Source of the DNA: a virus
DNA length: 23,643 bases
Strand: one strand, 5' to 3'
Virus genome (UHGV): UHGV-1377030
Each line of letters begins with the position of its first letter. The stretch's first letter is position 1. The notes below the pieces were generated by a model that was not told where the DNA came from, did not search any database, and saw nothing but the letters and a program-made list of their open reading frames with translations. The translations under genes and the position numbers were made by a program. This document shows positions 2,767 to 14,518 of the stretch, in pieces.

Positions 2767-3042
2767 ATGTCGATGTACACAACCGCCCAGCTGCTGGCGG
2801 CAAATGAGCAGAAATTTAAGTTTGATCCGCTGTTTCTGCGTCTCTTTTTCCGTGAGAGCTATCCCTTCACCACGGAGAAAGTCTATCTCTCACAAATTCC
2901 GGGACTGGTAAACATGGCGCTGTACGTTTCGCCGATTGTTTCCGGTGAGGTTATCCGTTCCCGTGGCGGATCCACCTCTGAATTTACGCCGGGATATGTC
3001 AAACCCAAGCACTTAGCATGGCTTTCTGAGGCTTTCGTGTAG
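2767..3042 (+). pseudogene. E: Major capsid protein E, 5' fragment truncated by the island insertion
   Basis: MSMYTTAQLLAANEQKFKFDPLFLRLFFRESYPFTTEKVYLSQ...TPGYVKPKH matches the lambda gpE N-terminus up to about nt 3012; the frame then reads 10 unrelated codons (LAWLSEAFV) and stops at 3042. The rest of E resumes at 13730. Confidence 0.85.
3002..3011. repeat. Left copy of 10-bp direct repeat (putative attL core)
   Basis: aacccaagca; identical copy at 13728..13737. Lambda-homologous E sequence ends here. Confidence 0.55.
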
Positions 3043-3139
3043 TTGCTGGTTTTTACACTTAATCTTTTGATAATAAAGAATAAATTTATCTGGCGCTTTC
3101 ACTGAATTTTCCTCGTTATCTGTGTGTTGCAATCATCTC

Positions 3140-3160
3140 TGTATTGCAGCTTGTATTGCT
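3140..3160. repeat. Tandem direct repeat tgtattgcagc / tgtattgct (putative integrase arm-type sites, left end)
   Basis: tgtattgcagc (3140..3150) and tgtattgct (3152..3160); a near-identical pair occurs at 13632..13652 in the same orientation. Confidence 0.45.
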
Positions 3161-3174
3161 TTTTGGGGCTAAAA

Positions 3175-4410
3175 ATGGCTGGCGAGAACAAACTGAGCGA
3201 CAAAGCGCTTAAAGGATATCTGGGGAAACCCAGAGAAAAGCAGATCACCATTGCTGATGGAAAGGGGCTTTCTATTCGTGTGAGTACTAAAGGGGCTGTG
3301 AGCTTTGTTTTCTTCTACAGGTTAGCAGGTGGCCGGGCTGCTCCGGTCTGGCTAACGTTGGGTAAATATCCTGATATGTCACTCAAACAGGCAAGGGAAA
3401 AGCGCGACGAGTGCCGTGGTTGGTTGGCTGACAAACGTGATCCGCGTATCCAGATTAAGATTCAGGCTGAAGAACGCTTAAAGCCGGTCACAGTGGAGGA
3501 TGCACTAAATTACTGGTATGAAAATTACTGTAAGGTGCGTCGTAAAACTCATGCTGTAACGCTTGGCAGATTTCGAAAGCATATCTTTCCCTATATCGGT
3601 CATTTGCCCGTAAATGACACTCACCTATATGAATGGCTGGACTGTTTTGACCGAATTAAACGTAATGCACCAGTTATGGCGGCGTATGTTTTTTCTGACA
3701 CTAAATTAGCTCTTCGTTTTTGTCGGGTACGCCAGTACGCGACGTGTGATGCTTTAAAGGATTTGCGCATGAGTGATGTGGGGCAGATTGCAGGTAAGCG
3801 GGATCGGGTTCTGGATGAAGCCGAACTCGGCCAGCTCTGGAAGGCAATTTTTGTCGAGCCTGATTTAAAACTAATGTCTGAATACACGCGAAAAATGTTT
3901 GTGCTTTGTACAGTATTTGGATGTCGAATGAGTGAAGCCCGATTATCAGAATGGAGCGAATGGGATCTCGAAAGTTGGGTTTGGACTGTACCAAAAGATC
4001 ACTCAAAAACTGGTGTTGAAATCGTCAGACCAGTACCTGAAATTCTACGACAGTGGGTAACGGATGTTCACGAAGAGACAAAACATACTGGTTATGTGCT
4101 GGGAAGTCTGCGAATTAGAGAAAGCGTAAGCAAGATTGGGGGGAAAATCGGTAAACGTTTGGGCCATGAAAAACAATGGTCACTACACGACCTTAGAAGA
4201 ACGCTATCTACTCATCTAAGTGATCTCGGTGTTGAATTTTATGTAGTAGAACAACTGTTAGGCCATGCGCTACCTGGCGTGGCAGGTGTTTACAACCGGA
4301 GTAAGTTTATGGCTAAAAAACTGGATGCTCTGGAACTCTGGACTACATATCTCAATAGCATCGCAGGTGCTGATTCAAAAGTGACGATCCTCAAACAAAA
4401 GGTTGGTTAA
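3175..4410 (+). CDS. int: Tyrosine recombinase / integrase, P4-type (N-terminal arm-binding domain plus catalytic domain)
   Basis: ATG at 3175 (MAGENKLSDKALKGYLG...) in the 3124..4410 ORF. N-terminus resembles the P4-like integrase arm-binding domain (DGKGLSIRVSTKGAVSFVFFYRLAG...LGKYPDMSLKQAREKRDE); the C-terminus carries HDLRRT, LLGHA and a VYNRS tyrosine region typical of tyrosine recombinases. Start at 3124 is an alternative. Confidence 0.85.
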   Translation: MAGENKLSDKALKGYLGKPREKQITIADGKGLSIRVSTKGAVSFVFFYRLAGGRAAPVWLTLGKYPDMSLKQAREKRDECRGWLADKRDPRIQIKIQAEERLKPVTVEDALNYWYENYCKVRRKTHAVTLGRFRKHIFPYIGHLPVNDTHLYEWLDCFDRIKRNAPVMAAYVFSDTKLALRFCRVRQYATCDALKDLRMSDVGQIAGKRDRVLDEAELGQLWKAIFVEPDLKLMSEYTRKMFVLCTVFGCRMSEARLSEWSEWDLESWVWTVPKDHSKTGVEIVRPVPEILRQWVTDVHEETKHTGYVLGSLRIRESVSKIGGKIGKRLGHEKQWSLHDLRRTLSTHLSDLGVEFYVVEQLLGHALPGVAGVYNRSKFMAKKLDALELWTTYLNSIAGADSKVTILKQKVG

Positions 4411-4411
4411 C

Positions 4412-4639
4412 ATGAAAAAAATGGCAATTGTTGATAAAAAGGGTCTGGAGTACATTCCTAACATTGACCGAATGATCCGTGAGAAAGAATGTCGGGAGCT
4501 AACCACTCTTGCGAACAGCACACGCTGGAAGCTGGAGAAGGAAGGAAAATTTCCTAAGCGGATCAAGATTGGTTCCACTGCTGTTGCATATCGTCTTTCA
4601 GAAGTGCAGGCATGGATTCGAGGTGAGTGGGTAGTTTAA
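4412..4639 (+). CDS. alpA: AlpA-like phage transcriptional regulator / excisionase-like HTH protein
   Basis: MKKMAIVDKKGLEYIPNIDRMIREKECRELTTLANSTRWKLEKEGKFPKRIKIGSTAVAYRLSEVQAWIRG; short MerR/AlpA-type HTH protein immediately after int with tight spacing (int stop 4408..4410, ATG 4412). Confidence 0.75.
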   Translation: MKKMAIVDKKGLEYIPNIDRMIREKECRELTTLANSTRWKLEKEGKFPKRIKIGSTAVAYRLSEVQAWIRGEWVV

Positions 4640-4664
4640 ATTATCTCAGAATAAAATATTATGA

Positions 4665-4700
4665 ATTACTGATTTGAGAATTTGTACTCAAATCAGTAAT
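4665..4700. terminator. Perfect 14-bp inverted repeat hairpin between convergent genes (bidirectional terminator candidate)
   Basis: attactgatttgag (4665..4678) and ctcaaatcagtaat (4687..4700) with an 8-nt loop, in AT-rich context between the alpA stop and the stop of the minus-strand membrane protein gene. Confidence 0.5.
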
Positions 4701-4708
4701 AACATTCT

Positions 4709-5245
4709 TTATAAGAGATTAAATCCAAATAAAGAGTAATCATATACCGGGGTGCATTGCATTCCACTGAATATGCTGATGTTTTTTTCTGTTTCTATCC
4801 TTTTTTCAATAAGTTGTTGTATATTTTTACAGTACAATTTGTGTGTGATGTTATTATCGTAAGCCTGATATAGCAACGTCAATGTTGACGCTAGGAAACA
4901 TACAGATAAAATTAAAATAATATATGCAGTTTTTTTATTTTTTGTCCATGATCTATTTGTTTGTGAAATATAAAGAATTCTGAGGTGGATAATGGTGAGA
5001 GACAATAGCAGGCCACTCAATAAAATAAGTATTGGGTTTGCGTATTTTATTAATGGTTGAGAGCAAAAAACTATTATAGCTCCTGTGACTGCGTATGAGA
5101 AAAAGGAGTAATTAAACTTCTTACTCCTTCTCTCAAGTATTTTAATTTCATCTTGTGTGGGGGTTTTAGATGCCTCTAATATAAGTTTATTGAATGTTTC
5201 TGTTATCTTGTTTTTTGTGTTTGTGGCTATTTTTTTTAGATTCAT
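4709..5245 (-). CDS. Hypothetical membrane protein (about 3 predicted TM helices), AT-rich cargo gene
   Basis: 178-aa ORF with hydrophobic stretches (FFSYAVTGAIIVFCSQPLI, ILILLSGLLLSLTIIHLRILYI, AYIILILSVCFLASTLTLLY), a GGGAG-like SD upstream, and strongly AT-rich codon usage unlike its neighbours. No family recognised. Confidence 0.5.
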   Translation of the reverse strand: MNLKKIATNTKNKITETFNKLILEASKTPTQDEIKILERRSKKFNYSFFSYAVTGAIIVFCSQPLIKYANPILILLSGLLLSLTIIHLRILYISQTNRSWTKNKKTAYIILILSVCFLASTLTLLYQAYDNNITHKLYCKNIQQLIEKRIETEKNISIFSGMQCTPVYDYSLFGFNLL

Positions 5246-5559
5246 AGCATTCTAACTCCCTTAACTTATTTATTACTTTCTCTTTATGATAAGAGAGGGG
5301 AATGACTTGGTAAAGTGATTTGTCATTAATAATGATAATCCTTGCGATAAATATTTCTGCAAGTTATTTATCTGTTTGTTGCTATCTTGTTAAGCGTTGG
5401 GTGTGGTTTATATTTGGAGCGACTTTATTTAATCGTGATTTTATGGATTTATATTTATATCCTGTAAGATAAGCGCATGTTAGTTTAGGAGTAGTGTCAG
5501 ATAAAATTATTCGGAGTAGAACTACCTTTTCTGTTTATTGCCAGTATTTACATAGCAAT

Positions 5560-5586
5560 GCGCCGTAGTTACTCACATCACGGCGC
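5560..5586. terminator. Stem-loop downstream of the minus-strand regulator gene
   Basis: gcgccgt (5560..5566) pairs with acggcgc (5580..5586); lies just 3' of the stop of the 5596..5898 gene on its strand. Confidence 0.3.
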
Positions 5587-5595
5587 TGATACTAA

Positions 5596-5898
5596 TTATT
5601 CAGATTCTTTGGCTTTACGCCGCTGGAGTTCTTCACGAGCGACGGCTACGAGTTGCCCGATTTCCTCCGCTGCCTTGATGCCGATTTGTTCGACCTTAGC
5701 TAAGGCATCCAGTGAAGACACGAGGGGATTTTCTCCGCTTCCTTCTGCCTGGCGGCGGGCGATCTCACCGCGCATGGCGGTTACTATGAATCCGGCGTTG
5801 CTTTCGCCGTCCAGTTTTACGGATTCCATGCCCTCCATAACATCGTGGGGAACCCTGATCGTTGTCATTTGCGATTTTGCATTTTTGTATACAGACAT
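5596..5898 (-). CDS. Putative small transcriptional regulator (repressor-like; possible ribbon-helix-helix N-terminus)
   Basis: 100-aa ORF divergent from the replication operon. N-terminal MTTIRVPHDVMEGMES resembles the beta-strand of RHH (Arc/CopG-like) DNA-binding proteins. The start could instead be the internal Met at 5868. Confidence 0.45.
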   Translation of the reverse strand: MSVYKNAKSQMTTIRVPHDVMEGMESVKLDGESNAGFIVTAMRGEIARRQAEGSGENPLVSSLDALAKVEQIGIKAAEEIGQLVAVAREELQRRKAKESE

Positions 5899-5914
5899 AG
5901 TTAATCACCAATTT

Positions 5915-6025
5915 GTTATGTGTATATCACTATACACAAAAGTGAGATATAAAAACACTTGCAATGTATATCACCACAATATAATGTATATCTCACATTA
6001 TGGTCGCTATGTATCTCACAATGAT
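5915..6025. promoter_or_regulatory. Divergent promoter/operator region with four direct copies of TGTATAT(C)TCAC-like motif plus an inverted copy
   Basis: tgtatatcac (5921..5930), tgtatatcacc (5965..5975), tgtatatctcac (5985..5996), tgtatctcaca (6009..6020) and inverted gtgagatat (5942..5950), all within the 208-bp gap between divergent genes. Confidence 0.5.
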
Positions 6026-6106
6026 CGATTCATAAAAACGACGAAACCCGGCAGTGCGCGAACACTAACCGGGCTTCTAACCAAACCGTTAAACGAGGTA
6101 ACTATT

Positions 6107-6472
6107 ATGGCTGGAACACAGCATACCCAAACTCACCCTAAATTTATATACATCTTTCTGGCGCTACATCGCGATCGCATAGCAGATGGAGCAACTACGG
6201 TACATGTAGCCGCTGACACGCTGGTTGATGCCCGCAAGATGGTTAAGGAGATGGGCTATACTGCGGCTTTCTGGAAAGGGCGGGAAGAAAACACGCTGTT
6301 TATTCAGAAATGTGAAAACAATTTCCTCTGGCGTTTTATCGCCCTGAGTACGACACAACCGCGCGTGATTACCATCGAGGCCACCAGCGAACAGGAAGCC
6401 CGCCAGCAATCCCCAACTGGCTGCGTGATGATATTCGCCGCCCGTATTCGTCAGGAGGTGTGCCATGAATGA
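6107..6472 (+). CDS. Hypothetical protein (first gene of island early/replication operon)
   Basis: ATG at 6107 preceded by a GAGGT SD; the longer 5558..6472 ORF would run antisense through the regulator gene, so it is trimmed. No family recognised. Confidence 0.5.
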   Translation: MAGTQHTQTHPKFIYIFLALHRDRIADGATTVHVAADTLVDARKMVKEMGYTAAFWKGREENTLFIQKCENNFLWRFIALSTTQPRVITIEATSEQEARQQSPTGCVMIFAARIRQEVCHE

Positions 6473-6689
6473 TCTTTATTTTAAAGTGCTGACACATGCT
6501 GAAAACGCGCTCGTTTGTGGCAAAAATATGCGAGAAATCTTATCAACCTGGCTTGATGGGACAACAAATGCGGAACACGATGAACGGGATGCTAATTTAG
6601 CTGGAGCGTTAATTACGTTACTTGATCCTGTCATCAAAGAGCTGGATGAAGCTATAAAAATACACGATCAGAGCTATACCGAAGAATAA
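6465..6689 (+). CDS. Hypothetical protein
   Basis: 74-aa ORF; its ATG overlaps the upstream stop (ATGA coupling) and is preceded by an AGGAGG SD. Confidence 0.5.
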   Translation: MNDLYFKVLTHAENALVCGKNMREILSTWLDGTTNAEHDERDANLAGALITLLDPVIKELDEAIKIHDQSYTEE

Positions 6690-6691
6690 AA

Positions 6692-6979
6692 ATGAAAAAT
6701 AAATTTTCTGGCTTTATTGCTAGCGGTCAAGCTCATTCAAAAATCAGCCTTGGGGATATTTTCAAAGATAGCTATGGCTATCGGGTAAAGATTATTTCGG
6801 TTGATGATCGCCGTGTCCCTTATTTGCGTGATGGTTATGATTTTGAATGTGTTATGCCGCGTCAGCAGTTCGAAAGAGATTTCATTCTGGTAAAAAATTG
6901 CAAGACAGATAATCAGAGGCGTGCCGCAGGCTATATCCGCAAAATTCGGGCAATGTTAGTTGCCGGAGGTAATAAATGA
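6692..6979 (+). CDS. Hypothetical protein
   Basis: 95-aa ORF starting 3 nt after the previous stop; operon context. Confidence 0.45.
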   Translation: MKNKFSGFIASGQAHSKISLGDIFKDSYGYRVKIISVDDRRVPYLRDGYDFECVMPRQQFERDFILVKNCKTDNQRRAAGYIRKIRAMLVAGGNK

Positions 6980-7158
6980 AACGTGCTCCGAACTTAAAAT
7001 ACCAACCGCGCGACAAAATGACAGAAGTCATCATTTTTGCTGGCAGTGATGCCTAGAGCCATGCAAAAGAATGGAATGAATGGGCGGGTAAGCATATTGC
7101 AGCAGATGATACACCACCAGTAATTCTGGGTACGGAACAACTGGAAAACCTGGATGAT

Positions 7159-8796
7159 ATGCAAATTATCGATGAAGGCCGTCATTATGTGCGTGTTTAT
7201 CGTGCCGGAAAGATTGCAGAGAAAAATCTGACGAAGGTTGCGACATTACTTGCTATTGCAGGCGTAAAGGAAGCACGTTGTTACCGTAGCTTTGTTGATC
7301 GAGAGCCTGAAGACTGGACTCCGCGCCTTGTCGGCCTAAAAGCTGAAGCGGAGCATGGGGAAAGTCTGGTGATTGAACTGCCAGTGAAGAAGGCTGAGCG
7401 CAAAAATGACGAGCGTGCTTCATCTTTGGCGTTGAATCAGATGGGGGCCAGCCAGCGCGGTGAAGTTCTCCTTGCACATTACGGCGGCGAACTGGCAATC
7501 AATGCCGACTCTGACACCGTTCATCATTACAACGGCGTTGTATGGGAGCCGGTTCAGGATAAAGAGTTACAGCGTGCTATGGCGCAGATTTTCATTGATG
7601 CGGAGATCAGCTATTCGCAGAACGCTATTAAATCGGCGGTAGATACCATGAAGTTAAGTTTGCCTGTAATGGGGAATACAGCCCGTAACCTGATTGGATT
7701 CAGTAACGGGGTATTTGATACCAGAACTGGTAATTTTCGGGAGCATAACAAAAACGACTGGTTGTTAATTGCCAGTGAATTACCTTTCAGCCCACCAGCA
7801 GAGGGGGAAACGCTGGCAACACATGCGCCGAATTTCTGGAAGTGGTTGCGCCGTTCGGTGGCTGAGAATGACCGCAAGGCAGATCGCGTACTGGCGGCAT
7901 TATTCATGGTGCTGGCGAACCGGTACGACTGGCAGTTATTCATTGAGGTAACAGGGCCGGGGGGAAGTGGTAAAAGTGTGATGGCGGAGATTTGCACCAT
8001 GCTGGCGGGTAAGGCTAATACAGTATCAGCAAGCATGAAGGCGCTGGAAGATGCAAGGGAACGTGCGTTAGTGGTTGGCTTTTCGCTGATTATCATGCCG
8101 GATATGACCCGCTACGCTGGTGATGGGGCAGGGATTAAGGCCATTACAGGCGGTGACAAGGTGGCAATTGACCCGAAACACAAAGCCCCCTATTCAACGC
8201 GTATTCCGGCAGTAGTGCTGGCGGTTAACAATAACGCCATGTCATTCAGTGACCGCAGCGGGGGGATCTCACGTCGTCGGGTGATATTCAATTTTTCGGA
8301 AGTTGTACCGGAGAACGAACGCGATTCGATGCTGGCGGAAAAAATAGAAGGTGAGCTGGCGGTAGTGATTCGTCATCTGCTTACAAGGTTTGCTGATCAG
8401 GACGAAGCCAGACGCCTGTTATATGAGCAGCAGAAATCTGAAGAAGCACTGGCGATAAAGCGAGAGGGGGATTCGCTGGTGGACTTCTGCGGTTATCTCA
8501 TGGCATCGGTAATGTGTGATGGCCTGTTAGTGGGTAATGCTGAAATTGTGCCATTCAGCCCACGCAGGTATCTCTATCATGCCTATCTGGCTTATATGAG
8601 GGCACATGGGTTTGGTAAACCTGTAACACTGACGCGCTTCGGTAAAGATATGCCGGGGGCAATGGCGGAATATGGCAGGGAGTATATGAAACGGAAAACG
8701 AAGCACGGTTTGCGTTCAAACGTGACCCTGACGGAGGAATCAGAAGACTGGATGCCATCATGTGTATCGGTCACTAATGACGATAGCAAAAATTAA
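7159..8796 (+). CDS. Phage/plasmid primase-helicase, P4 alpha-like (D5 N-terminal-like region plus SF3 P-loop NTPase)
   Basis: Walker A GPGGSGKS in TGPGGSGKSVMAEICTMLAG, a downstream hydrophobic-acidic Walker B-like stretch (LVVGFSLIIMPDM), and overall resemblance to satellite/PICI primase-replicase proteins. Gene is followed directly by an iteron array. Confidence 0.8.
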   Translation: MQIIDEGRHYVRVYRAGKIAEKNLTKVATLLAIAGVKEARCYRSFVDREPEDWTPRLVGLKAEAEHGESLVIELPVKKAERKNDERASSLALNQMGASQRGEVLLAHYGGELAINADSDTVHHYNGVVWEPVQDKELQRAMAQIFIDAEISYSQNAIKSAVDTMKLSLPVMGNTARNLIGFSNGVFDTRTGNFREHNKNDWLLIASELPFSPPAEGETLATHAPNFWKWLRRSVAENDRKADRVLAALFMVLANRYDWQLFIEVTGPGGSGKSVMAEICTMLAGKANTVSASMKALEDARERALVVGFSLIIMPDMTRYAGDGAGIKAITGGDKVAIDPKHKAPYSTRIPAVVLAVNNNAMSFSDRSGGISRRRVIFNFSEVVPENERDSMLAEKIEGELAVVIRHLLTRFADQDEARRLLYEQQKSEEALAIKREGDSLVDFCGYLMASVMCDGLLVGNAEIVPFSPRRYLYHAYLAYMRAHGFGKPVTLTRFGKDMPGAMAEYGREYMKRKTKHGLRSNVTLTEESEDWMPSCVSVTNDDSKN

Positions 8797-8804
8797 ACTT
8801 ATGG

Positions 8805-9040
8805 AATAACTGTTCACCACTGTTCACCCTGTCATAAATATCTTTTATATCAGTATATTATAGGGTGAACAGTTATTTATGAACTGTTCACCAAACTATT
8901 CACTGTTCACCTTTTTGATTGTTTATTGAGCTTCAAGGGTGAACAGTGGTGAACAGTTGGTGAATAGTTTTTGTGAAACTGTTCACCCATTAACATTATG
9001 AATTAAAAGAGAAAATATCAAAAGGTGAACAGGTGAAGGG
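8805..9040. repeat. Iteron array, putative island replication origin
   Basis: About 10 copies of CTGTTCACC or its complement GGTGAACAG in both orientations: 8810..8818, 8820..8828, 8864..8872, 8884..8892, 8903..8911, 8938..8946, 8948..8956, 8959..8967 (degenerate), 8979..8987, 9024..9032, in AT-rich non-coding DNA just 3' of the helicase gene. Confidence 0.65.
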
Positions 9041-9083
9041 TTAAAACGCAAAAATTTTAATTTACTGCTGTGAGATAAAGCCT

Positions 9084-9329
9084 ATGACAGCGAAGCACAC
9101 AAAAAAATCACAATCGCACGCCCTTGATTTGACGGAACACTGGTTAAGGGTGTCGATAAAAATCATCGACCGCAACGCCGGGGAAGGATACGCGAAAGCA
9201 CATCCCGAACTGATTAGCGCATTCATGACAACGGCGGCTGCAAACTTTGCCACTCTGACCGAACGGGAGATTGCTGAAGCGGAGGAAGTGACAACAATCA
9301 ATATTAAGTCCGGAGAGCAGGCAGCATGA
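9084..9329 (+). CDS. Hypothetical protein
   Basis: 81-aa ORF; its stop overlaps the start of the next gene (ATGA). Weak SD. Confidence 0.4.
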   Translation: MTAKHTKKSQSHALDLTEHWLRVSIKIIDRNAGEGYAKAHPELISAFMTTAAANFATLTEREIAEAEEVTTINIKSGEQAA

Positions 9330-9775
9330 CGGCGCAAATATCAGTTTACGGGCGGTTGGTGGACGACCCGCAGACAAAACAGACCAGCAAGGGCACCCCC
9401 ATGACGCTGGCGCGTATGGCGGTATCACTGCCCTGCAGTCAGTCGGATGACGGTCAGGCGACGATGTGGTTATCTGTCCTGGCGTTTGGCAGACAAGCCG
9501 ACGCGCTGGCAAAGCATCACAAAGGCGAACTCCTGAGCGTGGCGGGTAATATGCAGGTGAGCCAGTGGACTGGACAGAACGGTGAAACGCGGCAGGGCTG
9601 GCAGGTTATCGCAGACAGCGTAATCAGTGCGCGAACGGTGCGACCGGGCGGCAAAAAAGGTCAACAGGGTCAGGCTACTGACGCACTGAACAGAGCAAAA
9701 CAACAGGCAGATCAGCAAGGAAGCCATCCACCAGTGGGAGATAATGAGCAATGGGGAGATGATATTCCGTTTTAA
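9326..9775 (+). CDS. Single-stranded DNA-binding protein-like (divergent SSB with acidic C-terminal tail)
   Basis: 149 aa ending in ...EQWGDDIPF, the characteristic SSB C-terminal tail (DDDIPF); a Gly/Gln-rich linker precedes it. Confidence 0.6.
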   Translation: MTAQISVYGRLVDDPQTKQTSKGTPMTLARMAVSLPCSQSDDGQATMWLSVLAFGRQADALAKHHKGELLSVAGNMQVSQWTGQNGETRQGWQVIADSVISARTVRPGGKKGQQGQATDALNRAKQQADQQGSHPPVGDNEQWGDDIPF

Positions 9776-9783
9776 ATATTGCC

Positions 9784-9808
9784 AATAAAAAAGGCCGGAA
9801 AAAAATAA
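9784..9808. other. Palindromic hairpin after the SSB-like gene
   Basis: gccggaaaa-aaataaa-ttttccggc perfect palindrome; terminator or operator, function unclear. Confidence 0.3.
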
Positions 9809-9992
9809 ATTTTCCGGCATGCTACATAAATCCCGACCAAAGGGAGTGAAGATATTAACACTAATTATCCGCGCTGGAGTTGTTATCCCAAAACTTTATA
9901 CAACATTGCACTCGGTTGCATGTATTCGCATGACAAATATCGGTGATAGCATATATCCACAATTATTTTTAATGAATGCAAAGAGGATGCGT

Positions 9993-11033
9993 ATGGTTGA
10001 TTTATATTCGCCTACCCAGCTTGTACAGGTGGTTAATGCTGTAGATGTACAAAAACAACTAAATGCGTTGTTTACCAGTTTGTTTTTTACTCGCTCGGTA
10101 ATGTTTGAATCGCGCGATATTATTCTTGATACAATCGACGATCCAAATATCCCAATTGCAGCGTTTTGTTCTCCTATGGTAGGTAGTAAAGTTTCACGTG
10201 ACGAAGGGTACGAATCAAAAACAATTCGTCCAGGCTATATGAAGCCGAAAAGCAGCATTGATCCAAATAAGTTAGCTGTGCGCCCTGCTGGTGTATCACC
10301 TGAGCAATACAATGCTTTTGGAGCGCGTAATATTAAAGTTAAACAGGCGATTGTAAATCAGGCTAAAGCTATTCGTGCACGTATTGAATGGTTTGCCGTT
10401 CAGGCAATCACAACGGGGAAAAATATCATTGAGGGCGATGGTATTGAACGTTATGAGCTGGACTGGAATATAAAACCACAAAATATCATCACTCAGTCTG
10501 GCGGTACTGAGTGGTCAGGTAAGGATAAAGAAACTTTTGATCCAAATGATGATATTGAGAGCTACGCAGAATTTAGTGAGGGCGTCACTAATATCATCAT
10601 TATGGGCGGTAATGTATGGAAGAAATACCGTTCATTCAGAGCGATAAAAGAGGCTCTGGATACCCGTCGTGGTTCTAATTCCGAACTGGAAACGGCCCTT
10701 AAAGACCTTGGTGATTCGGTGAGTTTTAAAGGGTATATGGGCGATGTTGCGATTGTTGTATACAGCGGGCGTTATACCGACGAGGACGGAACTGAAAAAC
10801 ATTTCCTTGATCCTGATTTGATGGTGCTTGGCAATACGGCTCTTCAGGGGATTGTCGCCTATGGCGGTATTCAGGATCCGGAGCTAATCCGAATGGGGCT
10901 GACTAAAGCCGAACTTGCACCGAAAAACTATATTGTGCCTGGTGATCCGGCTATTGAATATGTGCAGACACATTCAGCACCACAGCCAATACCGGCCCGC
11001 ATCAATCGTTTTGTTACCGTTCGCATTGGCTAA
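9993..11033 (+). CDS. Island-encoded major capsid protein homologue (lambda gpE-like, full length)
   Basis: ATG at 9993 with an AGAGGA SD 5 nt upstream. MVDLYSPTQLVQ... aligns with the gpE N-terminus, and the C-terminal half is clearly homologous (ITQSGGTEWS, LDTRRGSNSELETA, GDVAIVVYSG, MVLGNT, GDPA), visible even at nucleotide level. Confidence 0.85.
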   Translation: MVDLYSPTQLVQVVNAVDVQKQLNALFTSLFFTRSVMFESRDIILDTIDDPNIPIAAFCSPMVGSKVSRDEGYESKTIRPGYMKPKSSIDPNKLAVRPAGVSPEQYNAFGARNIKVKQAIVNQAKAIRARIEWFAVQAITTGKNIIEGDGIERYELDWNIKPQNIITQSGGTEWSGKDKETFDPNDDIESYAEFSEGVTNIIIMGGNVWKKYRSFRAIKEALDTRRGSNSELETALKDLGDSVSFKGYMGDVAIVVYSGRYTDEDGTEKHFLDPDLMVLGNTALQGIVAYGGIQDPELIRMGLTKAELAPKNYIVPGDPAIEYVQTHSAPQPIPARINRFVTVRIG

Positions 11034-11042
11034 GGGGGAGCA

Positions 11043-11384
11043 ATGGCTACTCATTACACTGAACTCATGGCTGGCACTGAAGCACTGGTGACTACGCTGG
11101 GGATATTTTCAGCTAATAAAGGGGTAATTCCTGCATTTACGCCACTGATGCAGGAAGATGCAACAGGTGCACTGGTGGTATGGGATGGTTCGAGCGTAGG
11201 TAAAGCGGTTTATGTTTCCGCTGTACAAATCGACACCGCGAAAAAAACACAGGCTCAGGTCTATAAGACAGGTGTCTTAAATGTTGATGCTCTGAACTGG
11301 CCTGAGTCTGTAAAAGAACTGTCAGTAAAGATTGCAGCGTTTGTTGGCTCAGGTATTTCTGTTCAGCCGCTGGCTCGTGTGTAA
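11043..11384 (+). CDS. Island-encoded head decoration protein homologue (lambda gpD-like)
   Basis: 113 aa with strong SD (AAGGGGGAG). TPLMQEDATGALVVWDGSSVGKAVYVSAVQ...FVGSGISV parallels gp[30 protein letters not shown]...FAGTAISIV; similar length. Confidence 0.7.
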   Translation: MATHYTELMAGTEALVTTLGIFSANKGVIPAFTPLMQEDATGALVVWDGSSVGKAVYVSAVQIDTAKKTQAQVYKTGVLNVDALNWPESVKELSVKIAAFVGSGISVQPLARV

Positions 11385-11395
11385 AGGGGGATACA

Positions 11396-11779
11396 ATGCA
11401 GAATGATTACAATGACCTTAAGCCACTTGCCGAAATGATGTACCCGAATCCAGCTGTAGAGGAATTAAAAGCTATCGCTGACAAAATGTGTTTAAGCGAG
11501 CGCCTTGTTGATATGAATCAGGTGATGGAAATTACAACCCTGAGTCGGCGTACACTGCTAAACCTTGAGGCTAGTGGAGAGTTCCCGGAGCGTGTGCAGG
11601 TTACGGAAGGGCGTAAGGCCTGGTATTTAAGTGAAGTGATCGACTGGATAAATAATATTCCTCGCGCTTCTGAATATTGCCGCGTACCTGTCCCAAAAAA
11701 GCCAGATGCGGCGCTATGCCTCAAGATTGAGCGTGTACGCCGCAATGCACGGGATGGTCGCTATAAGCTGATTGGTTGA
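11396..11779 (+). CDS. Small HTH DNA-binding protein (AlpA/MerR-like winged helix), candidate cos-binding or packaging-redirecting protein
   Basis: 127 aa with strong SD. Central segment MEITTLSRRTLLNLEASGEFPERVQVTEGRKAWYLSEVIDWINN has AlpA-like HTH architecture; gene sits directly upstream of the island cos site. Confidence 0.55.
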   Translation: MQNDYNDLKPLAEMMYPNPAVEELKAIADKMCLSERLVDMNQVMEITTLSRRTLLNLEASGEFPERVQVTEGRKAWYLSEVIDWINNIPRASEYCRVPVPKKPDAALCLKIERVRRNARDGRYKLIG

Positions 11780-11832
11780 TGAAATTAGGGCCCGCTCTGG
11801 CTGGCGGGTCCTTTCCGGCGATCTGACAGGCT

Positions 11833-12000
11833 ACGGGGCGTCAGGCGCGCAGTTTTTTGCTATTTGTGAAAATTTTCCTGTTTAAGGCGTTTCCGTTCTT
11901 CTTCGCCGTAACTTAATGTTTTTATTAAAAACACCCCCTAAAAAGAAAGGAAACGACAGGTGCTAAAAACAGGCTTTTTGGCCTCTGTCGTTTCCTTTCT
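11833..12000 (+). other. Lambda-type cos site carried by the island (cosN-like plus cosB R3, I1 region, R2, R1)
   Basis: Sequence from ctacggggcg... through gcgtttccgttcttcttcg (R3-like, 11888..11905), agaaaggaaacgacag (R2-like, 11944..11959) and ctgtcgtttcctttct (R1-like, 11985..12000) closely parallels the left end of lambda DNA as I recall it. The R-site region is near-identical; the cosN segment differs at several positions. Confidence 0.75.
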
Positions 12001-12345
12001 CTGGTTTTGTTGCCATCCGTCGCGGTCTATCACCAGAAAAAATCTTATCCCTGAGTTGAATCAGGCCCTATTCAGAAGCGGCCAATAACGCGCCGCTAGC
12101 TTCACTTCATAGTTATGGCCTACTTCTGCGCCATTGCAATTGCTTTATGCGCCTTGATGGTGGAATATAGAGCAAGCAGTTTGCGAATAACAAAGTTTCA
12201 TATGTTTTTTGCTGTGTGGCTAGACAACTTTACAGCAGAGTTTTGTGTCAGTTCTTTATGTGTGCAAGCAAGCTTGAGGGGGAATTACTTCTGGCTGCAT
12301 CTTTGCTTAAGAACAGCAATAATTTAATCATAAGGAAATGTATAT

Positions 12346-12368
12346 AAGCCTGATTAAATTTCAGGCTT
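12346..12368 (-). terminator. Hairpin immediately 3' of the TIR-domain gene
   Basis: aagcctga (12346..12353) pairs with tcaggctt (12361..12368) around a 7-nt loop, 10 nt beyond the gene stop, in AT-rich context. Confidence 0.4.
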
Positions 12369-12377
12369 ATTGAAATG

Positions 12378-13520
12378 TTAACTCCTTATTAGAGAGTAAA
12401 TTCCATCCTCTTTAAGGAAGTCTATTACTTCAAAGAATGAGATAAAGAATTCCCAAGAACCAAAAGCATATGCATGAATTTCGTAAGGTGCAAAATGGAA
12501 TCTAAATCCATCACTATTTATTGTGAACGAGTCTAAGTTACTATCCATGATACCCGTTGCAAACGTACTAATGTCGTCCTCACTTGGTTTTTCACCAGTT
12601 TTCTCCCAAAATTCACGAGCTGATTCAGAGATTATTTTTTGTTTTATCTTATTAATCGCTTCTTGCTCTTTCCCTTCGGTAAATACATCCCATAAACTAA
12701 ATTTGTATGCGTAGTCATCCTTGGTTATTACGAAATTACTAGTTTCAAAATGACTGTTAGGGTGTGCTGCTCCCGCACCATACCAATGTACGGAATGAAG
12801 GATGCTCATAACATTTTCGTTACAGTATGAGATGTTATAACTTTCATTATAGGAACTAGTGTAAGTGTGTTTATATTCTTCATCCCAATATGGTGTTCCT
12901 GGCCATAGTGATGTGCGTTCAGAAAAAATATGTAAAGCCGCTTTTCCTGAAAAGTAATCACTAATGAGTTTTGCTGATTTCGGTAATGTATGGCTTTCAA
13001 TTCTTGGATATGCTATTTCAATTTCATGCCCTGGGATCTTGTTATATTCTTCCTTGAAAACCTCGCTGCTAAAGTTAAATGGCCCATAAGTGATACCTTG
13101 AGATATTTCAAGTTTTTGTTGCGATGCTGCTAATCTTAAAGATCTAGATAAAATGTCCCAACCATCATTTCTCTTAAAATCAATGAATTGGAGCTTGCTT
13201 GATATGTAGGCGGGTACTTCGCAATCATCAATAAGTAATGGTATCACGAACACATCATCTGGTTTGTAATACTTTAGTTTATCAATGGCGTCATTTATTT
13301 CGCGGCGAATATAACCATTTTTCTGAGTGCTCACTTTGCTAAGGATAAGGATTATCAAGTTTGAATTAGCGAAGTTTTTTTGGATTTCATAATCCCAGTT
13401 TACGCCAGCGGGTATATCTTTTACATCCATCCAAGGGGAATATCCTCCACTTTTTAGCCTTTCATAGATTTCTTCAGTTATCGTTTCATCTTCTTTTGCA
13501 TGAGCAAGAAAAATTTTCAT
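12378..13520 (-). CDS. TIR-domain protein with uncharacterised ~240-aa C-terminal domain (candidate anti-phage defence cargo)
   Basis: 380-aa ORF with an AAGGAA SD 6 nt upstream. N-terminus MKIFLAHAKEDETITEEIYERLKSGGYSPWMDVKDIPAGVNW...LIILILSKVSTQKNGYIRREINDAI fits the bacterial TIR pattern (K-I/V-F-L/I-S/A-H/Y start, W at box 2, S-x-x-S...E catalytic-type segment). Strongly AT-rich relative to island and phage genes. Confidence 0.75.
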   Translation of the reverse strand: MKIFLAHAKEDETITEEIYERLKSGGYSPWMDVKDIPAGVNWDYEIQKNFANSNLIILILSKVSTQKNGYIRREINDAIDKLKYYKPDDVFVIPLLIDDCEVPAYISSKLQFIDFKRNDGWDILSRSLRLAASQQKLEISQGITYGPFNFSSEVFKEEYNKIPGHEIEIAYPRIESHTLPKSAKLISDYFSGKAALHIFSERTSLWPGTPYWDEEYKHTYTSSYNESYNISYCNENVMSILHSVHWYGAGAAHPNSHFETSNFVITKDDYAYKFSLWDVFTEGKEQEAINKIKQKIISESAREFWEKTGEKPSEDDISTFATGIMDSNLDSFTINSDGFRFHFAPYEIHAYAFGSWEFFISFFEVIDFLKEDGIYSLIRS

Positions 13521-13631
13521 TGAATATTCCTTTATAATTTAACTAATTAAGTGAAGGAGGCTTTACTTGGCTGTGTTAGAAAAAATTCGGTTTGTTTTTT
13601 GTACGATGCCAAGAAGGCTTTTCCCTAACCA

Positions 13632-13652
13632 TGTATTGCAGCATGTATTGCT
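13632..13652. repeat. Tandem direct repeat tgtattgcagc / tgtattgct (putative integrase arm-type sites, right end)
   Basis: tgtattgcagc (13632..13642) and tgtattgct (13644..13652), matching the pair at 3140..3160. Confidence 0.45.
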
Positions 13653-13727
13653 ACGTAATTCTGCACCCTCTCATTTATAAAATAAATCTCTGTTAAATCA
13701 AGTATCTTTTTTCTATTTGACTCATGT

Positions 13728-13737
13728 AACCCAAGCA
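13728..13737. repeat. Right copy of 10-bp direct repeat (putative attR core)
   Basis: aacccaagca; lambda E-homologous sequence resumes exactly here. Confidence 0.55.
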
Positions 13738-14518
13738 TGAGGTGAATCCGCAGATGACCCTGCGTCGCCTGCCGGATGAAGATCCGCAGAATCTGGCGGA
13801 CCCGGCTTACCGCCGCCGTCGCATCATCATGCAGAACATGCGTGACGAAGAGCTGGCCATTGCTCAGGTCGAAGAGATGCAGGCCGTTTCTGCCGTGCTT
13901 AAGGGCAAATACACCATGACCGGTGAAGCCTTCGATCCGGTTGAGGTGGATATGGGCCGCAGTGCGGCGAATAACATCACGCAGTCCGGCGGCACGGAGT
14001 GGAGCAAGCGTGACAAGTCCACGTATGACCCGACCGACGATATCGAAGCCTACGCGCTGAACGCCAGCGGTGTGGTGAATATCATCGTGTTTGATCCGAA
14101 AGGCTGGGCGCTGTTCCGTTCCTTCAAAGCCGTCAAGGAGAAGCTGGATACCCGTCGTGGCTCTAATTCCGAGCTGGAGACAGCGGTGAAAGACCTGGGT
14201 AAAGCGGTGTCCTATAAGGGGATGTATGGCGATGTTGCCATCGTCGTGTATTCCGGACAGTACGTGGAAAACGGCGTCAAAAAGAACTTCCTGCCGGACA
14301 ACACGATGGTGCTGGGGAACACTCAGGCACGCGGTCTGCGTACCTATGGCTGTATTCAGGATGCGGACGCACAGCGCGAAGGCATTAACGCCTCTGCCCG
14401 TTACCCGAAAAACTGGGTGACCACCGGCGATCCGGCGCGTGAGTTCACCATGATTCAGTCAGCACCGCTGATGCTGCTGGCTGACCCTGATGAGTTCGTG
14501 TCCGTACAACTGGCGTAA
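13730..14518 (+). pseudogene. E: Major capsid protein E, 3' fragment (continuation of the gene interrupted at about 3012)
   Basis: PKHEVNPQMTLRRLPDEDPQNLADPAYRRRR...DEFVSVQLA matches lambda gpE from about residue 80 to the C-terminus. An in-frame TAA at 13727..13729 precedes it, so the fragment lacks its N-terminal part. Confidence 0.85.

What the first reader, a model, noticed from the sequence alone, without database searches (positions are those of the whole stretch)
12378..13520. AT-rich cargo gene encoding a TIR-domain protein with an unknown C-terminal domain
A single 380-aa gene lies between cos and the right attachment repeat, flanked by an SD and a 3' hairpin, and is much more AT-rich than the rest of the island, suggesting separate acquisition. 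Residues 1..135 fit a bacterial TIR domain, with a glutamate (E74 by my count, in YIRREINDAI) at the position expected for the NAD-cleaving catalytic residue. The ~240-aa C-terminal region (aromatic-rich, with HWYGAGAAHP) matches nothing I recognise. No ThsA-like, STING, SAVED or NLR partner gene is adjacent. This looks like a candidate single-gene TIR defence or abortive-infection system carried as satellite cargo.
Basis: partly seen in the sequence, partly recalled or inferred. Interest (0 to 1): 0.8.

Follow-up and report, generated by a model that had tools for sequence, protein, structure and literature searches.

The report
Satellite-borne TIR enzyme with RsiV-like sensor
A phage satellite lodged inside an E. 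coli prophage carries one foreign gene that fuses a TIR domain (predicted NAD-degrading) to a domain folded like the bacterial lysozyme receptor RsiV; it is most likely an undescribed single-gene anti-phage suicide switch.

Summary
A 380-aa ORF lies at 12378..13520 on the minus strand, antisense to the island and to the helper's late genes. It has an AAGGA Shine-Dalgarno, a 10-bp hairpin after the stop, and GC 0.355 against 0.45 for the rest of the island and 0.57-0.59 for the prophage.

The island is a known helper-embedded PICI inserted in a lambda-like capsid gene. Its slot after cos is a cargo hotspot. Sibling islands hold a PD-T4-2-like pair or a PDC-S31 candidate there; 365 E. coli genomes have the island module and 16 have this gene.

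Relatives sit in prophages, ICEs and islands of many phyla. In 68 loci no neighbouring gene family recurs in more than 5.

Best reading, at confidence 0.6, is a single-polypeptide abortive-infection NADase with an RsiV-like sensor. No model in PADLOC v2.0.0 covers the full length and no paper on it was found. Function is untested.

The parts
12378..13520 (-). CDS of 380 aa (identical to WP_000688840.1), a TIR plus DUF4163/DUF3298 fusion; the stop codon is 12378-12380
13116..13520 (-). TIR domain, residues 1-135 (predicted NADase effector)
13299..13301 (-). Codon GAA for E74, the putative catalytic glutamate
   Evidence: Invariant in 66 homologues. Aligns with SPARTA TIR-APAZ residue 77. Codon checked.
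12381..13115 (-). C-terminal DUF4163/DUF3298 (RsiV-like) module, residues 136-380; proposed sensor
12756..12785 (-). Invariant motif WYGAGAAHPN (residues 246-255). It is the family's GGAHP signature. A252 aligns by a two-step alignment with RsiV S169, a lysozyme-contact residue.
   Evidence: RsiV residues from PMC5014341
12459..12494 (-). Conserved motif FAPYEIHAYAFG (residues 343-354), the DUF3298 signature. A350 and A352 align with RsiV P259 and Y261.
13528..13532 (-). Shine-Dalgarno-like AAGGA, 7 nt upstream of the ATG
12344..12370 (-). 3' hairpin with a 10-bp stem and no T-run; probable transcript end or stabiliser
   Evidence: z = -3.3; not called by the terminator scan
13673..13701 (-). 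Possible sigma-70 promoter, TTGATT-17-ATAAAT, read by eye and below the scan's criteria
   Evidence: Sequence; not reported, so this is weak.
12011..13672 (.). Variable cargo cassette: the stretch not shared with sibling islands
   Evidence: blastn against sibling islands and the alignment
11804..12010 (+). cos-type region copied from lambdoid phages. In phage PhiR46_1 the homologous stretch ends 15 bp before Nu1.
13728..13737 (+). attR core AACCCAAGCA of the helper-embedded PICI; the attL copy is at 3002-3011
   Evidence: A 10-bp identity block is described for 11capE in PMC10111431.

Best explanation
The gene encodes a self-contained, single-polypeptide anti-phage abortive-infection system carried as swappable cargo of a helper-embedded PICI.

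The gene would be transcribed antisense to the island and to the helper's late operon. It is presumably expressed on its own in the lysogen. That step is inferred.

The N-terminal TIR domain is the effector. It is an NAD+ glycohydrolase using E74 and is inactive as an isolated protomer.

The C-terminal DUF4163/DUF3298 module is a cytoplasmic version of the fold that RsiV uses to bind lysozyme. It is proposed to be the sensor and to bind a phage-derived or infection-derived ligand on the surface formed by the invariant WYGAGAAHPN and PY..AY.FG loops.

Ligand binding would bring protomers together, so that the TIR domains assemble into an active oligomer. NAD+ would then be depleted and the infected cell would die or arrest before phage release.

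Shown here: the two folds, the invariant Glu, the absence of a partner gene, the cargo-hotspot position and the association with mobile elements. Inferred: NADase activity, activation by oligomerisation, the identity of the trigger and the anti-phage phenotype.
For: Effector:
- TIR_2 at 2.8e-21.
- TIR fold in a pLDDT 89.9 model.
- The closest solved relatives by sequence are the NADase TIRs of SPARTA.
- E74, W30, D32, G39 and W42 are invariant across 66 homologues down to 22% identity.

Sensor:
- The C-terminal half diverges faster than the TIR half: 60% against 78% identity among close homologues.
- The same module is also fused to DUF4062 in P0221. DUF4062 is a TIR-like NADase family shown to give portal-activated abortive infection (preprint 10.64898/2026.05.01.722283).

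Autonomy:
- 68 loci show no conserved neighbour.
- DNA similarity to the other loci fetched up to then (Cronobacter, Yersinia and others), about 68%, is confined to the CDS.

Context:
- The slot is a hotspot. Among 365 E. coli genomes with the island's capsid-decoration-AlpA module, 16 have this gene.
- Siblings carry a PD-T4-2-like pair (7e-39 and 1e-4) or a PDC-S31 gene (2e-25) there.
- Relatives sit in prophages of Burkholderia and Xanthomonas and in ICE- or plasmid-like regions of Yersinia and Sphingomonas. Others lie next to AbiTii, a pair of reverse-transcriptase (RVT_1) genes, nSTAND3+Mrr_cat and GmrSD_N+HEPN genes.
- 14 full-length copies occur in IMG/VR viral contigs.
- Distribution is patchy across Proteobacteria, Deinococcus, Bacteroidetes and Acidobacteria.

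Precedent:
- 12 of 32 tested E. coli TIR systems are abortive-type defences that need the TIR active site, several of them single-gene (PMC11350192).
Against: - There is no experimental datum for this protein or any homologue.
- No model in PADLOC v2.0.0 covers the full length; only the TIR part matches.
- The invariant C-terminal motifs are signatures of the whole DUF4163/DUF3298 family, including extracytoplasmic proteins. They may be structural rather than a ligand site.
- Sensors of variable phage proteins usually lack such invariance.
- 20 of 32 E. coli TIR candidates gave no defence in the published screen, so a TIR domain alone is a weak predictor.
- No homologue is present in 50,697 isolated phage genomes.
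- The promoter is only a by-eye match.
- The TIR product could be a signal rather than NAD+ depletion.
Confidence: 0.6

Rival explanations
1. It is a signal-producing TIR, like Thoeris ThsB. The protein would make a cADPR-type messenger on infection, and an effector encoded elsewhere in the genome would execute the defence.
For: There are weak ThsB-type hits: ThsB_TIR 0.08, PADLOC ThsB1 8.5e-5 and NCBIfam ThcB4 0.003. Many bacterial TIRs are signal generators (10.64898/2025.12.03.692087).
Against: No effector or any other conserved gene lies within 3.5 kb in 68 loci. The gene travels alone on satellites, prophages and ICEs into unrelated hosts. That would separate it from a trans-encoded effector. 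The best sequence relatives are the NAD-depleting SPARTA TIRs.
Confidence: 0.08
2. It serves the satellite itself. It might interfere with the helper phage or act as an addiction toxin that stabilises the island, rather than defend against other phages.
For: The gene sits next to attR. The doubled integrase-type motif at 13632-13651 lies in its 5' region. Satellites commonly interfere with their helpers (PMC10111431).
Against: Homologues occur in ordinary prophages, ICE-like elements and chromosomal islets with no satellite present. Most sibling islands lack the gene: 365 genomes have the module and 16 have the gene. So it is not part of the satellite life cycle. No antitoxin-like neighbour is seen.
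Confidence: 0.08
3. It is a host-directed virulence factor. It would be a bacterial TIR mimic, like TcpC or BtpA, that subverts animal TLR signalling.
Against: The ORF starts directly with the TIR strand, and Pfam reports nothing but the TIR and DUF3298-type domains. No dedicated signal-peptide or transmembrane predictor was run. Most relatives are in soil, water and plant bacteria such as Pseudomonas, Burkholderia, Collimonas, Methylosinus and Acidobacteria. The catalytic Glu is invariant, which adaptor-type mimicry would not need. TcpC and BtpA are recalled from my own knowledge.
Confidence: 0.04
4. It is a passenger with a non-immune or no current function, for example an NAD-linked regulator responding to a cell-envelope cue, or a decaying gene.
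For: This island lineage shows decay. The primase has an internal stop and there is no terS. Twenty of 32 E. coli TIR candidates gave no defence.
Against: All 16 E. coli copies are at least 99.9% identical at the DNA level, and all are annotated as an intact TIR-domain CDS. The three examined in detail (IAI39, 1002W03, DSM 103246) encode the identical protein WP_000688840.1. The helpers around those three differ in several proteins. Full-length conservation with invariant active-site and motif residues extends over very distant taxa.
Confidence: 0.15

Closest known systems
SPARTA TIR-APAZ (short prokaryotic Argonaute system)
   Same: It is the closest solved TIR by sequence: E about 4e-8 over residues 2-118, with shared W30, D32, G39 and W42 equivalents and Glu at the same column. 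Foldseek also matches it. The logic is the same: an N-terminal TIR NADase is switched on when a C-terminal module drives oligomerisation.
   Different: There is no APAZ domain and no pAgo gene. The C-terminus is DUF4163/DUF3298. The system is one gene rather than two.
RsiV, the anti-sigma-V lysozyme receptor of Firmicutes (PDB 5JEN)
   Different: RsiV is a membrane anti-sigma factor with an extracytoplasmic receptor domain and has lost the GGAHP motif (TQASSYTQ instead). This protein has a TIR at its N-terminus, no sigma-binding region, and no transmembrane segment evident. Lysozyme binding is not general in the family, since Mpt64 does not bind it (PMC5014341).
Swarozyc (a DUF4062 TIR-like NADase plus an auxiliary domain)
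   Same: It is a single-polypeptide NADase with a C-terminal sensor, activated by a phage protein (the portal) and causing abortive infection. A relative of the present C-terminal module is fused to DUF4062 in P0221.
   Different: Its effector is DUF4062 rather than TIR_2. The Swarozyc auxiliary domain is an HTH/winged fold, not DUF3298.
Single-gene TIR defences of E. coli (TIR-II, V, VI and IX of Wang et al. 2024) and SpbK of ICEBs1
   Different: None is reported with a DUF3298-type domain. The domains listed in that paper are TM, AAA, TPR and DUF4238. I could not check whether this protein was among the 64 clusters or the 32 tested, because Supplementary Data 2 is not held. That SpbK senses the SPbeta portal is from my own knowledge.
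Helper-embedded PICI (11capE type)
   Same: The carrier island matches it. It is integrated in a lambda-like capsid gene E with a 10-bp core, carries its own capsid E and decoration genes, an AlpA-type regulator and a primase, and is co-oriented with the helper's late genes.
   Different: The main text and held supplements of that paper have no hit for 'cargo', 'accessory' or a TIR domain, and one hit for 'defense' that lies in its reference list. This copy lacks terS and has a broken primase.

Membership tests
TIR domain (Pfam TIR_2, STIR clan), NADase type | Sequence match above the curated threshold | tested here: met
   76.7 bits against a cut-off of 28, residues 3-122
TIR domain (Pfam TIR_2, STIR clan), NADase type | Flavodoxin-like TIR fold | tested here: met
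TIR domain (Pfam TIR_2, STIR clan), NADase type | Conserved catalytic glutamate | tested here: met
   E74 is invariant in 66 sequences and aligns with residue 77 of SPARTA TIR-APAZ. That E77 is catalytic is from my own knowledge.
TIR domain (Pfam TIR_2, STIR clan), NADase type | NAD+ cleavage activity | not testable with these tools
   Needs an enzyme assay.
DUF4163/DUF3298 superfamily (RsiV, PdaC N-terminal region, Mpt64, 3CYG) | DUF3298 sequence match above threshold | tested here: met
   42.8 bits against 24.1, residues 278-362. The profile hits 3cyg at 6e-9 and 3s5t at 5e-7.
DUF4163/DUF3298 superfamily (RsiV, PdaC N-terminal region, Mpt64, 3CYG) | DUF4163 (PdaC) sequence match above threshold | tested here: not met
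   16.4 bits against a cut-off of 29.1. However, the fold match covers this half too, and relative P0294 reaches 28.5 bits.
DUF4163/DUF3298 superfamily (RsiV, PdaC N-terminal region, Mpt64, 3CYG) | Two-domain fold | tested here: met
RsiV anti-sigma factor proper | N-terminal sigma-V-binding region plus a transmembrane segment; gene next to an ECF sigma factor | tested here: not met
   The N-terminus is a TIR domain and Pfam reports no other region; no transmembrane predictor was run. The neighbours are satellite genes and attR.
RsiV anti-sigma factor proper | Binds C-type lysozyme | not testable with these tools
   Needs a binding assay. RsiV's contact residues map onto the motifs conserved here, but Mpt64 does not bind lysozyme.
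Thoeris | A ThsB-type TIR gene adjacent to an effector gene (ThsA or another) | tested here: not met
   No conserved neighbour in 68 loci. In the window the only gene in the cassette is this one.
SPARTA / short pAgo | APAZ domain and an adjacent short pAgo gene | tested here: not met
   PADLOC and PDB matches stop at about residue 120. There is no Argonaute gene nearby.
Swarozyc | DUF4062 effector with an HTH/winged auxiliary domain | tested here: not met
   The effector is TIR_2 and the C-terminus is DUF3298. The auxiliary fold is described.
Catalogued defence system (PADLOC-DB v2.0.0) | Full-length match to a system model | tested here: not met
   All 11 hits cover only the TIR part, within residues 2-122.
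Cargo of a helper-embedded PICI | Lies inside an island bounded by att repeats within a prophage late gene, in a region that varies between sibling islands | tested here: met
   att cores are at 3002-3011 and 13728-13737 within capsid gene E. The variable region is 12011-13672. Siblings carry other cargo.

The most novel reading that the evidence does not exclude
The RsiV-like domain is a cytoplasmic receptor for the phage lysis machinery or its products. It would bind a lysozyme-fold endolysin accumulating in the cytoplasm late in infection, or imported muropeptides that signal cell-wall damage, and would couple that directly to TIR-mediated NAD+ depletion. That would be a bacterial counterpart of peptidoglycan- or lysozyme-based innate immune sensing. 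It would also assign a first function to the cytoplasmic branch of the large DUF3298 family.
Probability: 0.12. Interest if true: 0.85.

Novelty: new variant of a known kind. Interest (0 to 1): 0.55.

Why it matters
Single-protein TIR defences are known, but how they sense infection is understood for only a few. Here the sensor belongs to a family whose one ligand known to me is lysozyme.

The family is well defined. A profile of the C-terminal module finds 123 representatives of 50%-identity clusters at E <= 1e-30, and nearly all the top hits are about 380 aa with the module at residues ~140-380. Family members carry two invariant loops that suggest where to mutate.

If it defends, three things follow. 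It adds a new sensor class to bacterial immunity. It gives a concrete, cheap test of whether phage endolysins or cell-wall fragments can be immune triggers. It also shows that helper-embedded PICIs have a defence-cargo hotspot comparable to those of P2 and P4 elements.

Tried and rejected
- Literature. TIR+DUF3298 found 0 papers and WP_000688840 found 0. The RsiV/TIR/phage-defence search found nothing specific. The DefensePredictor main text and supplements had no hit, nor did the HE-PICI supplements.
- The accession table of the Wang et al. 2024 E. coli TIR survey is not held. I cannot say whether this protein was among their 64 clusters or the 32 tested.
- Isolated phage genomes gave no homologue. 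Viral structure library BFVD gave nothing below E 1e-3. Library afdb50 was unavailable.
- Plasmids gave only two distant full-length relatives, on large Agrobacterium and Rhizobium replicons.
- The C-terminal profile searches mostly re-found TIR fusions. Apparent short N-termini (P0210, P0235, P0249) are truncated TIRs from short contigs.
- Recurrent neighbours in the 68-locus test turned out to be generic families, or ORFs with no family hit shared mainly by duplicate or closely related records.
- The lambda cos 12-mer GGGCGGCGACCT is not in the window. The cos-type region here is of another lambdoid type.
- Membership of SPARTA, Thoeris, Swarozyc and RsiV proper was considered and rejected; see the membership tests.

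Full report
**1. What is there**

The finding's coordinates delimit a real ORF of 380 aa with an ATG start, but it runs on the minus strand (13520 to 12378). It is therefore antisense to every other recognisable gene of the island and to the late genes of the surrounding prophage.

- An AAGGA lies 7 nt upstream of the ATG (13528-13532).
- Just after the stop codon a 10-bp-stem hairpin (12344-12370) folds at -14.5 kcal/mol. Shuffles average -6.3, z is -3.3, and 0 of 200 shuffles fold as well. It lacks a T-run, so the terminator scan did not list it.
- The gene has GC 0.355 and GC3 0.30. The rest of the island has 0.45 and the flanking prophage 0.57-0.59.

**2. The carrier**

The island spans roughly 3002-13737. 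It consists of an integrase, a short regulatory and Icd-like region, DUF4222, a D5-type primase, SSB, a lambda E-type capsid gene, a gpD-type decoration gene and an AlpA-type regulator. It interrupts a lambda-like major capsid gene, whose N-terminal fragment is at 2767-3042 and C-terminal fragment at 13742-14518. A 10-bp core, AACCCAAGCA, is repeated at both junctions.

This is the helper-embedded PICI ("11capE") described by Mageeney, Williams and colleagues (PMC10111431).

Right after the AlpA gene lies a stretch (11804-12010) that is 91-93% identical to the non-coding region ending 15 bp before Nu1 in lambdoid phages. That makes it a cos-type region.

**3. The slot is a cargo hotspot**

- 365 of 5426 complete E. 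coli genomes carry the capsid-decoration-AlpA module at 80% coverage or more. Only 16 carry the TIR gene.
- In the three carriers examined (IAI39, 1002W03, DSM 103246) the gene sits in the same place and encodes the identical protein WP_000688840.1. The helper prophages around it differ in several proteins.
- Similarity between the window and sibling islands stops at 12010 (12192 for one) and resumes at 13673-13710. The cassette in between contains only this gene.
- In siblings the same slot holds one of several things. Some have a terS gene plus a small ORF, and one has a 311-aa hypothetical gene. Strains TUM9757, CS18F and E04 have a counter-oriented DUF262+HEPN pair matching PD-T4-2 (7e-39 and 1e-4). 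Strain 184/2aE has a DUF2971 gene matching candidate system PDC-S31 (2e-25).
- A second variable slot, between the integrase and the Icd-like gene, holds another TIR protein in some siblings (PDC-S35, 7e-67).

So the gene is swappable cargo in a position used for defence or candidate-defence genes.

**4. The protein**

*N-terminal half*

- Residues 3-122 match Pfam TIR_2 at 2.8e-21.
- The nearest solved sequences are the TIR-APAZ subunits of SPARTA, at about 4e-8. E74 falls on their residue 77.
- In an alignment of 66 homologues reaching 22% identity, the invariant TIR-half residues are F4, W30, D32, G39, W42, S61 and E74.
- An AlphaFold2 model built on that alignment has mean pLDDT 89.9.

*C-terminal half*

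- A profile of this half finds 3CYG (6e-9), BF2082/3S5T (5e-7) and Mpt64 (0.045).
The second invariant block, FAPYEIHAYAFG, is the DUF3298 signature.
- In the RsiV paper the residues needed for lysozyme binding are S169, P259 and Y261, on loops at the top of the fold (PMC5014341).
- I chained the HMMER alignment of a canonical family member to 5JEN with the motif alignments. By that route those three residues correspond to A252, A350 and A352 here, inside the two most conserved segments of this family.
- That correspondence rests on two chained alignments and is an inference.
- It identifies the likely functional surface. It does not show that the ligand is lysozyme: Mpt64, another family member, does not bind lysozyme.

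**5. The family and its contexts**

- The TIR+DUF3298 architecture is found in Enterobacterales at 63-71% identity. It also occurs in many Beta-, Gamma- and Alphaproteobacteria at 25-47% identity.
- It is sparse among 185,579 species-representative genomes, with about 50 full-length copies. These include Deinococcus, Bacteroidetes and Acidobacteria.
- An exhaustive profile search of the C-terminal half gives 123 representatives of 50%-identity clusters at E <= 1e-30. Nearly all the top hits are about 380 aa with the module at residues ~140-380, the position it has in the TIR fusions.
- There are instructive exceptions. P0221 joins the same module to DUF4062. P0202 adds a beta-helix domain at the C-terminal end.
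- DUF4062 was recently shown to be a TIR-like NADase. In the Swarozyc system it is activated by a phage portal and causes abortive infection (preprint 10.64898/2026.05.01.722283).
- Two NADase families sharing one C-terminal module fits an effector-sensor design.
- Among close homologues the C-terminal half is 60% identical and the TIR half 78%.

Contexts of homologues:

| Host | Context |
|---|---|
| Cronobacter | a small chromosomal islet beside an AbiTii gene |
| Yersinia | three different neighbourhoods, two of them in a TrfA/TrbL element; neighbours include two reverse-transcriptase genes, an SMC-like ATPase or a YobI-type ATPase |
| Burkholderia | a prophage, on the opposite strand between replication genes and terS, with an nSTAND3+Mrr_cat gene nearby |
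| Xanthomonas | a prophage |
| Pantoea | next to an integrase, with GmrSD_N, HEPN and RelA_SpoT genes nearby |
| Sphingomonas | a region with a MobA_MobL gene and a DUF2971 gene |

Fourteen full-length copies are on IMG/VR viral contigs.

I tested for a partner gene directly. In 68 loci with a full-length relative, ORFs of at least 70 aa within 3.5 kb were clustered by blastp. No cluster is present in more than five loci. The recurrent ones are near-duplicate genomes, generic families such as integrase, resolvase, SDR and GGDEF, or ORFs with no family hit. DNA similarity to the loci fetched (about 68%) is confined to the CDS. The gene is an autonomous unit.

**6. Mechanism proposed**

The best-supported reading is a single-polypeptide abortive-infection system. 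The steps are:

1. The RsiV-like domain binds an infection-derived ligand.
2. Protomers are brought together.
3. The TIR domains assemble into an active oligomer, as established for SPARTA, SARM1 and other TIR NADases (my knowledge).
4. NAD+ is consumed and the cell dies or arrests.

The published survey of E. coli TIR proteins gives the base rate. Twelve of 32 tested candidates defended. All of those needed the TIR active site and acted by death or arrest, and their triggers were individual phage proteins (PMC11350192).

I put 0.6 on this reading. Everything beyond folds, conservation and context is inferred. The rivals are scored separately: a trans-acting Thoeris-like signaller, a satellite-serving function, an animal-directed TIR mimic, and an inert or non-immune passenger.

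**7. Known or new**

No model in PADLOC v2.0.0 covers the full length; only the TIR part matches. No paper in the library combines TIR with DUF3298 or names the accession.

I could not check the accession table of the E. coli TIR survey. The domains that paper reports for its active systems are TM, AAA, TPR and DUF4238, and do not include DUF3298.

I therefore class this as a new variant of a known kind: a TIR abortive-infection protein with a sensor class not previously linked to immunity, as far as these sources show. The carrier island type is already known.

The most novel reading not excluded is direct sensing of phage endolysin or of muropeptides by the RsiV-like domain. I give it a probability of about 0.12.

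Noticed in passing
window 3002-13737 (att cores 3002-3011 and 13728-13737); capsid fragments 2767-3042 and 13742-14518: The whole island is a helper-embedded PICI of the published 11capE type. It splits the helper prophage's major capsid gene E and carries its own E-type capsid gene (9819-11033) and gpD-type decoration gene (11043-11384).
   Followed up: yes
window 6976-8796, stop codon TAG at 7054-7056: The satellite's D5-type primase gene has an in-frame stop at codon 27. The same gene is annotated as a pseudogene with an internal stop in IAI39. Sibling islands have an intact 606-aa gene. This TIR-carrying lineage may not replicate autonomously.
   Followed up: partly
window 12011 onward, compared with L003 7207-7758, L004 7163-7705 and L005 7162-7704: Many sibling islands have a small-terminase (terS/Nu1-like) gene right after the cos-type region. 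This island has none. The cargo cassette starts exactly where terS would begin. Two cos/terS types exist among siblings: some carry the exact lambda cos GGGCGGCGACCT, and this island carries another type.
   Followed up: partly
window 4709-5245, minus strand: There is a second, even more AT-rich (GC 0.30) counter-oriented cargo gene of 178 aa in the integrase-Icd slot. It has only weak membrane-protein-like Pfam hits and no PADLOC or PHROG match. In sibling islands this slot holds a 291-aa TIR protein (PDC-S35, 7e-67), DUF2971, SWIM or BRO-N genes.
   Followed up: partly
window 3140-3159 and 13632-13651: A doubled motif, TGTATTGCAGC(T/A)TGTATTGC, lies near each end of the island. It probably corresponds to the 'doubled DNA motif' reported as unique to HE-PICIs, possibly integrase arm sites. 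The right copy sits between the TIR gene's possible promoter and its start codon, so recombinase binding might affect TIR expression.
   Followed up: no
L018 6965-8681, L020 8165-9881, L002 10713-11961; L003 7865-8623: Sibling HE-PICIs carry a DUF262+HEPN pair resembling PD-T4-2/NsnA, or a DUF2971 (PDC-S31) gene, in the same slot. In the main text and held supplements of the HE-PICI paper, my term searches for 'cargo', 'accessory' and TIR found nothing relevant, and the single 'defense' hit lies in its reference list.
   Followed up: partly
proteins P0221 and P0202: The same RsiV-like module is fused to DUF4062 (the Swarozyc-type TIR-like NADase) in P0221. In P0202 it sits in a TIR+DUF3298 protein with an added C-terminal beta-helix domain.
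   Followed up: partly
L017 7099-7632 and matching ORFs in L033, L034 and L081: In the most distant subclade (about 420-aa proteins in Sphingomonas and two IMG/VR contigs), a 177-aa ORF with no Pfam match recurs about 0.5 kb upstream. It could be a clade-specific partner. L017 and L081 are the same genome.
   Followed up: no
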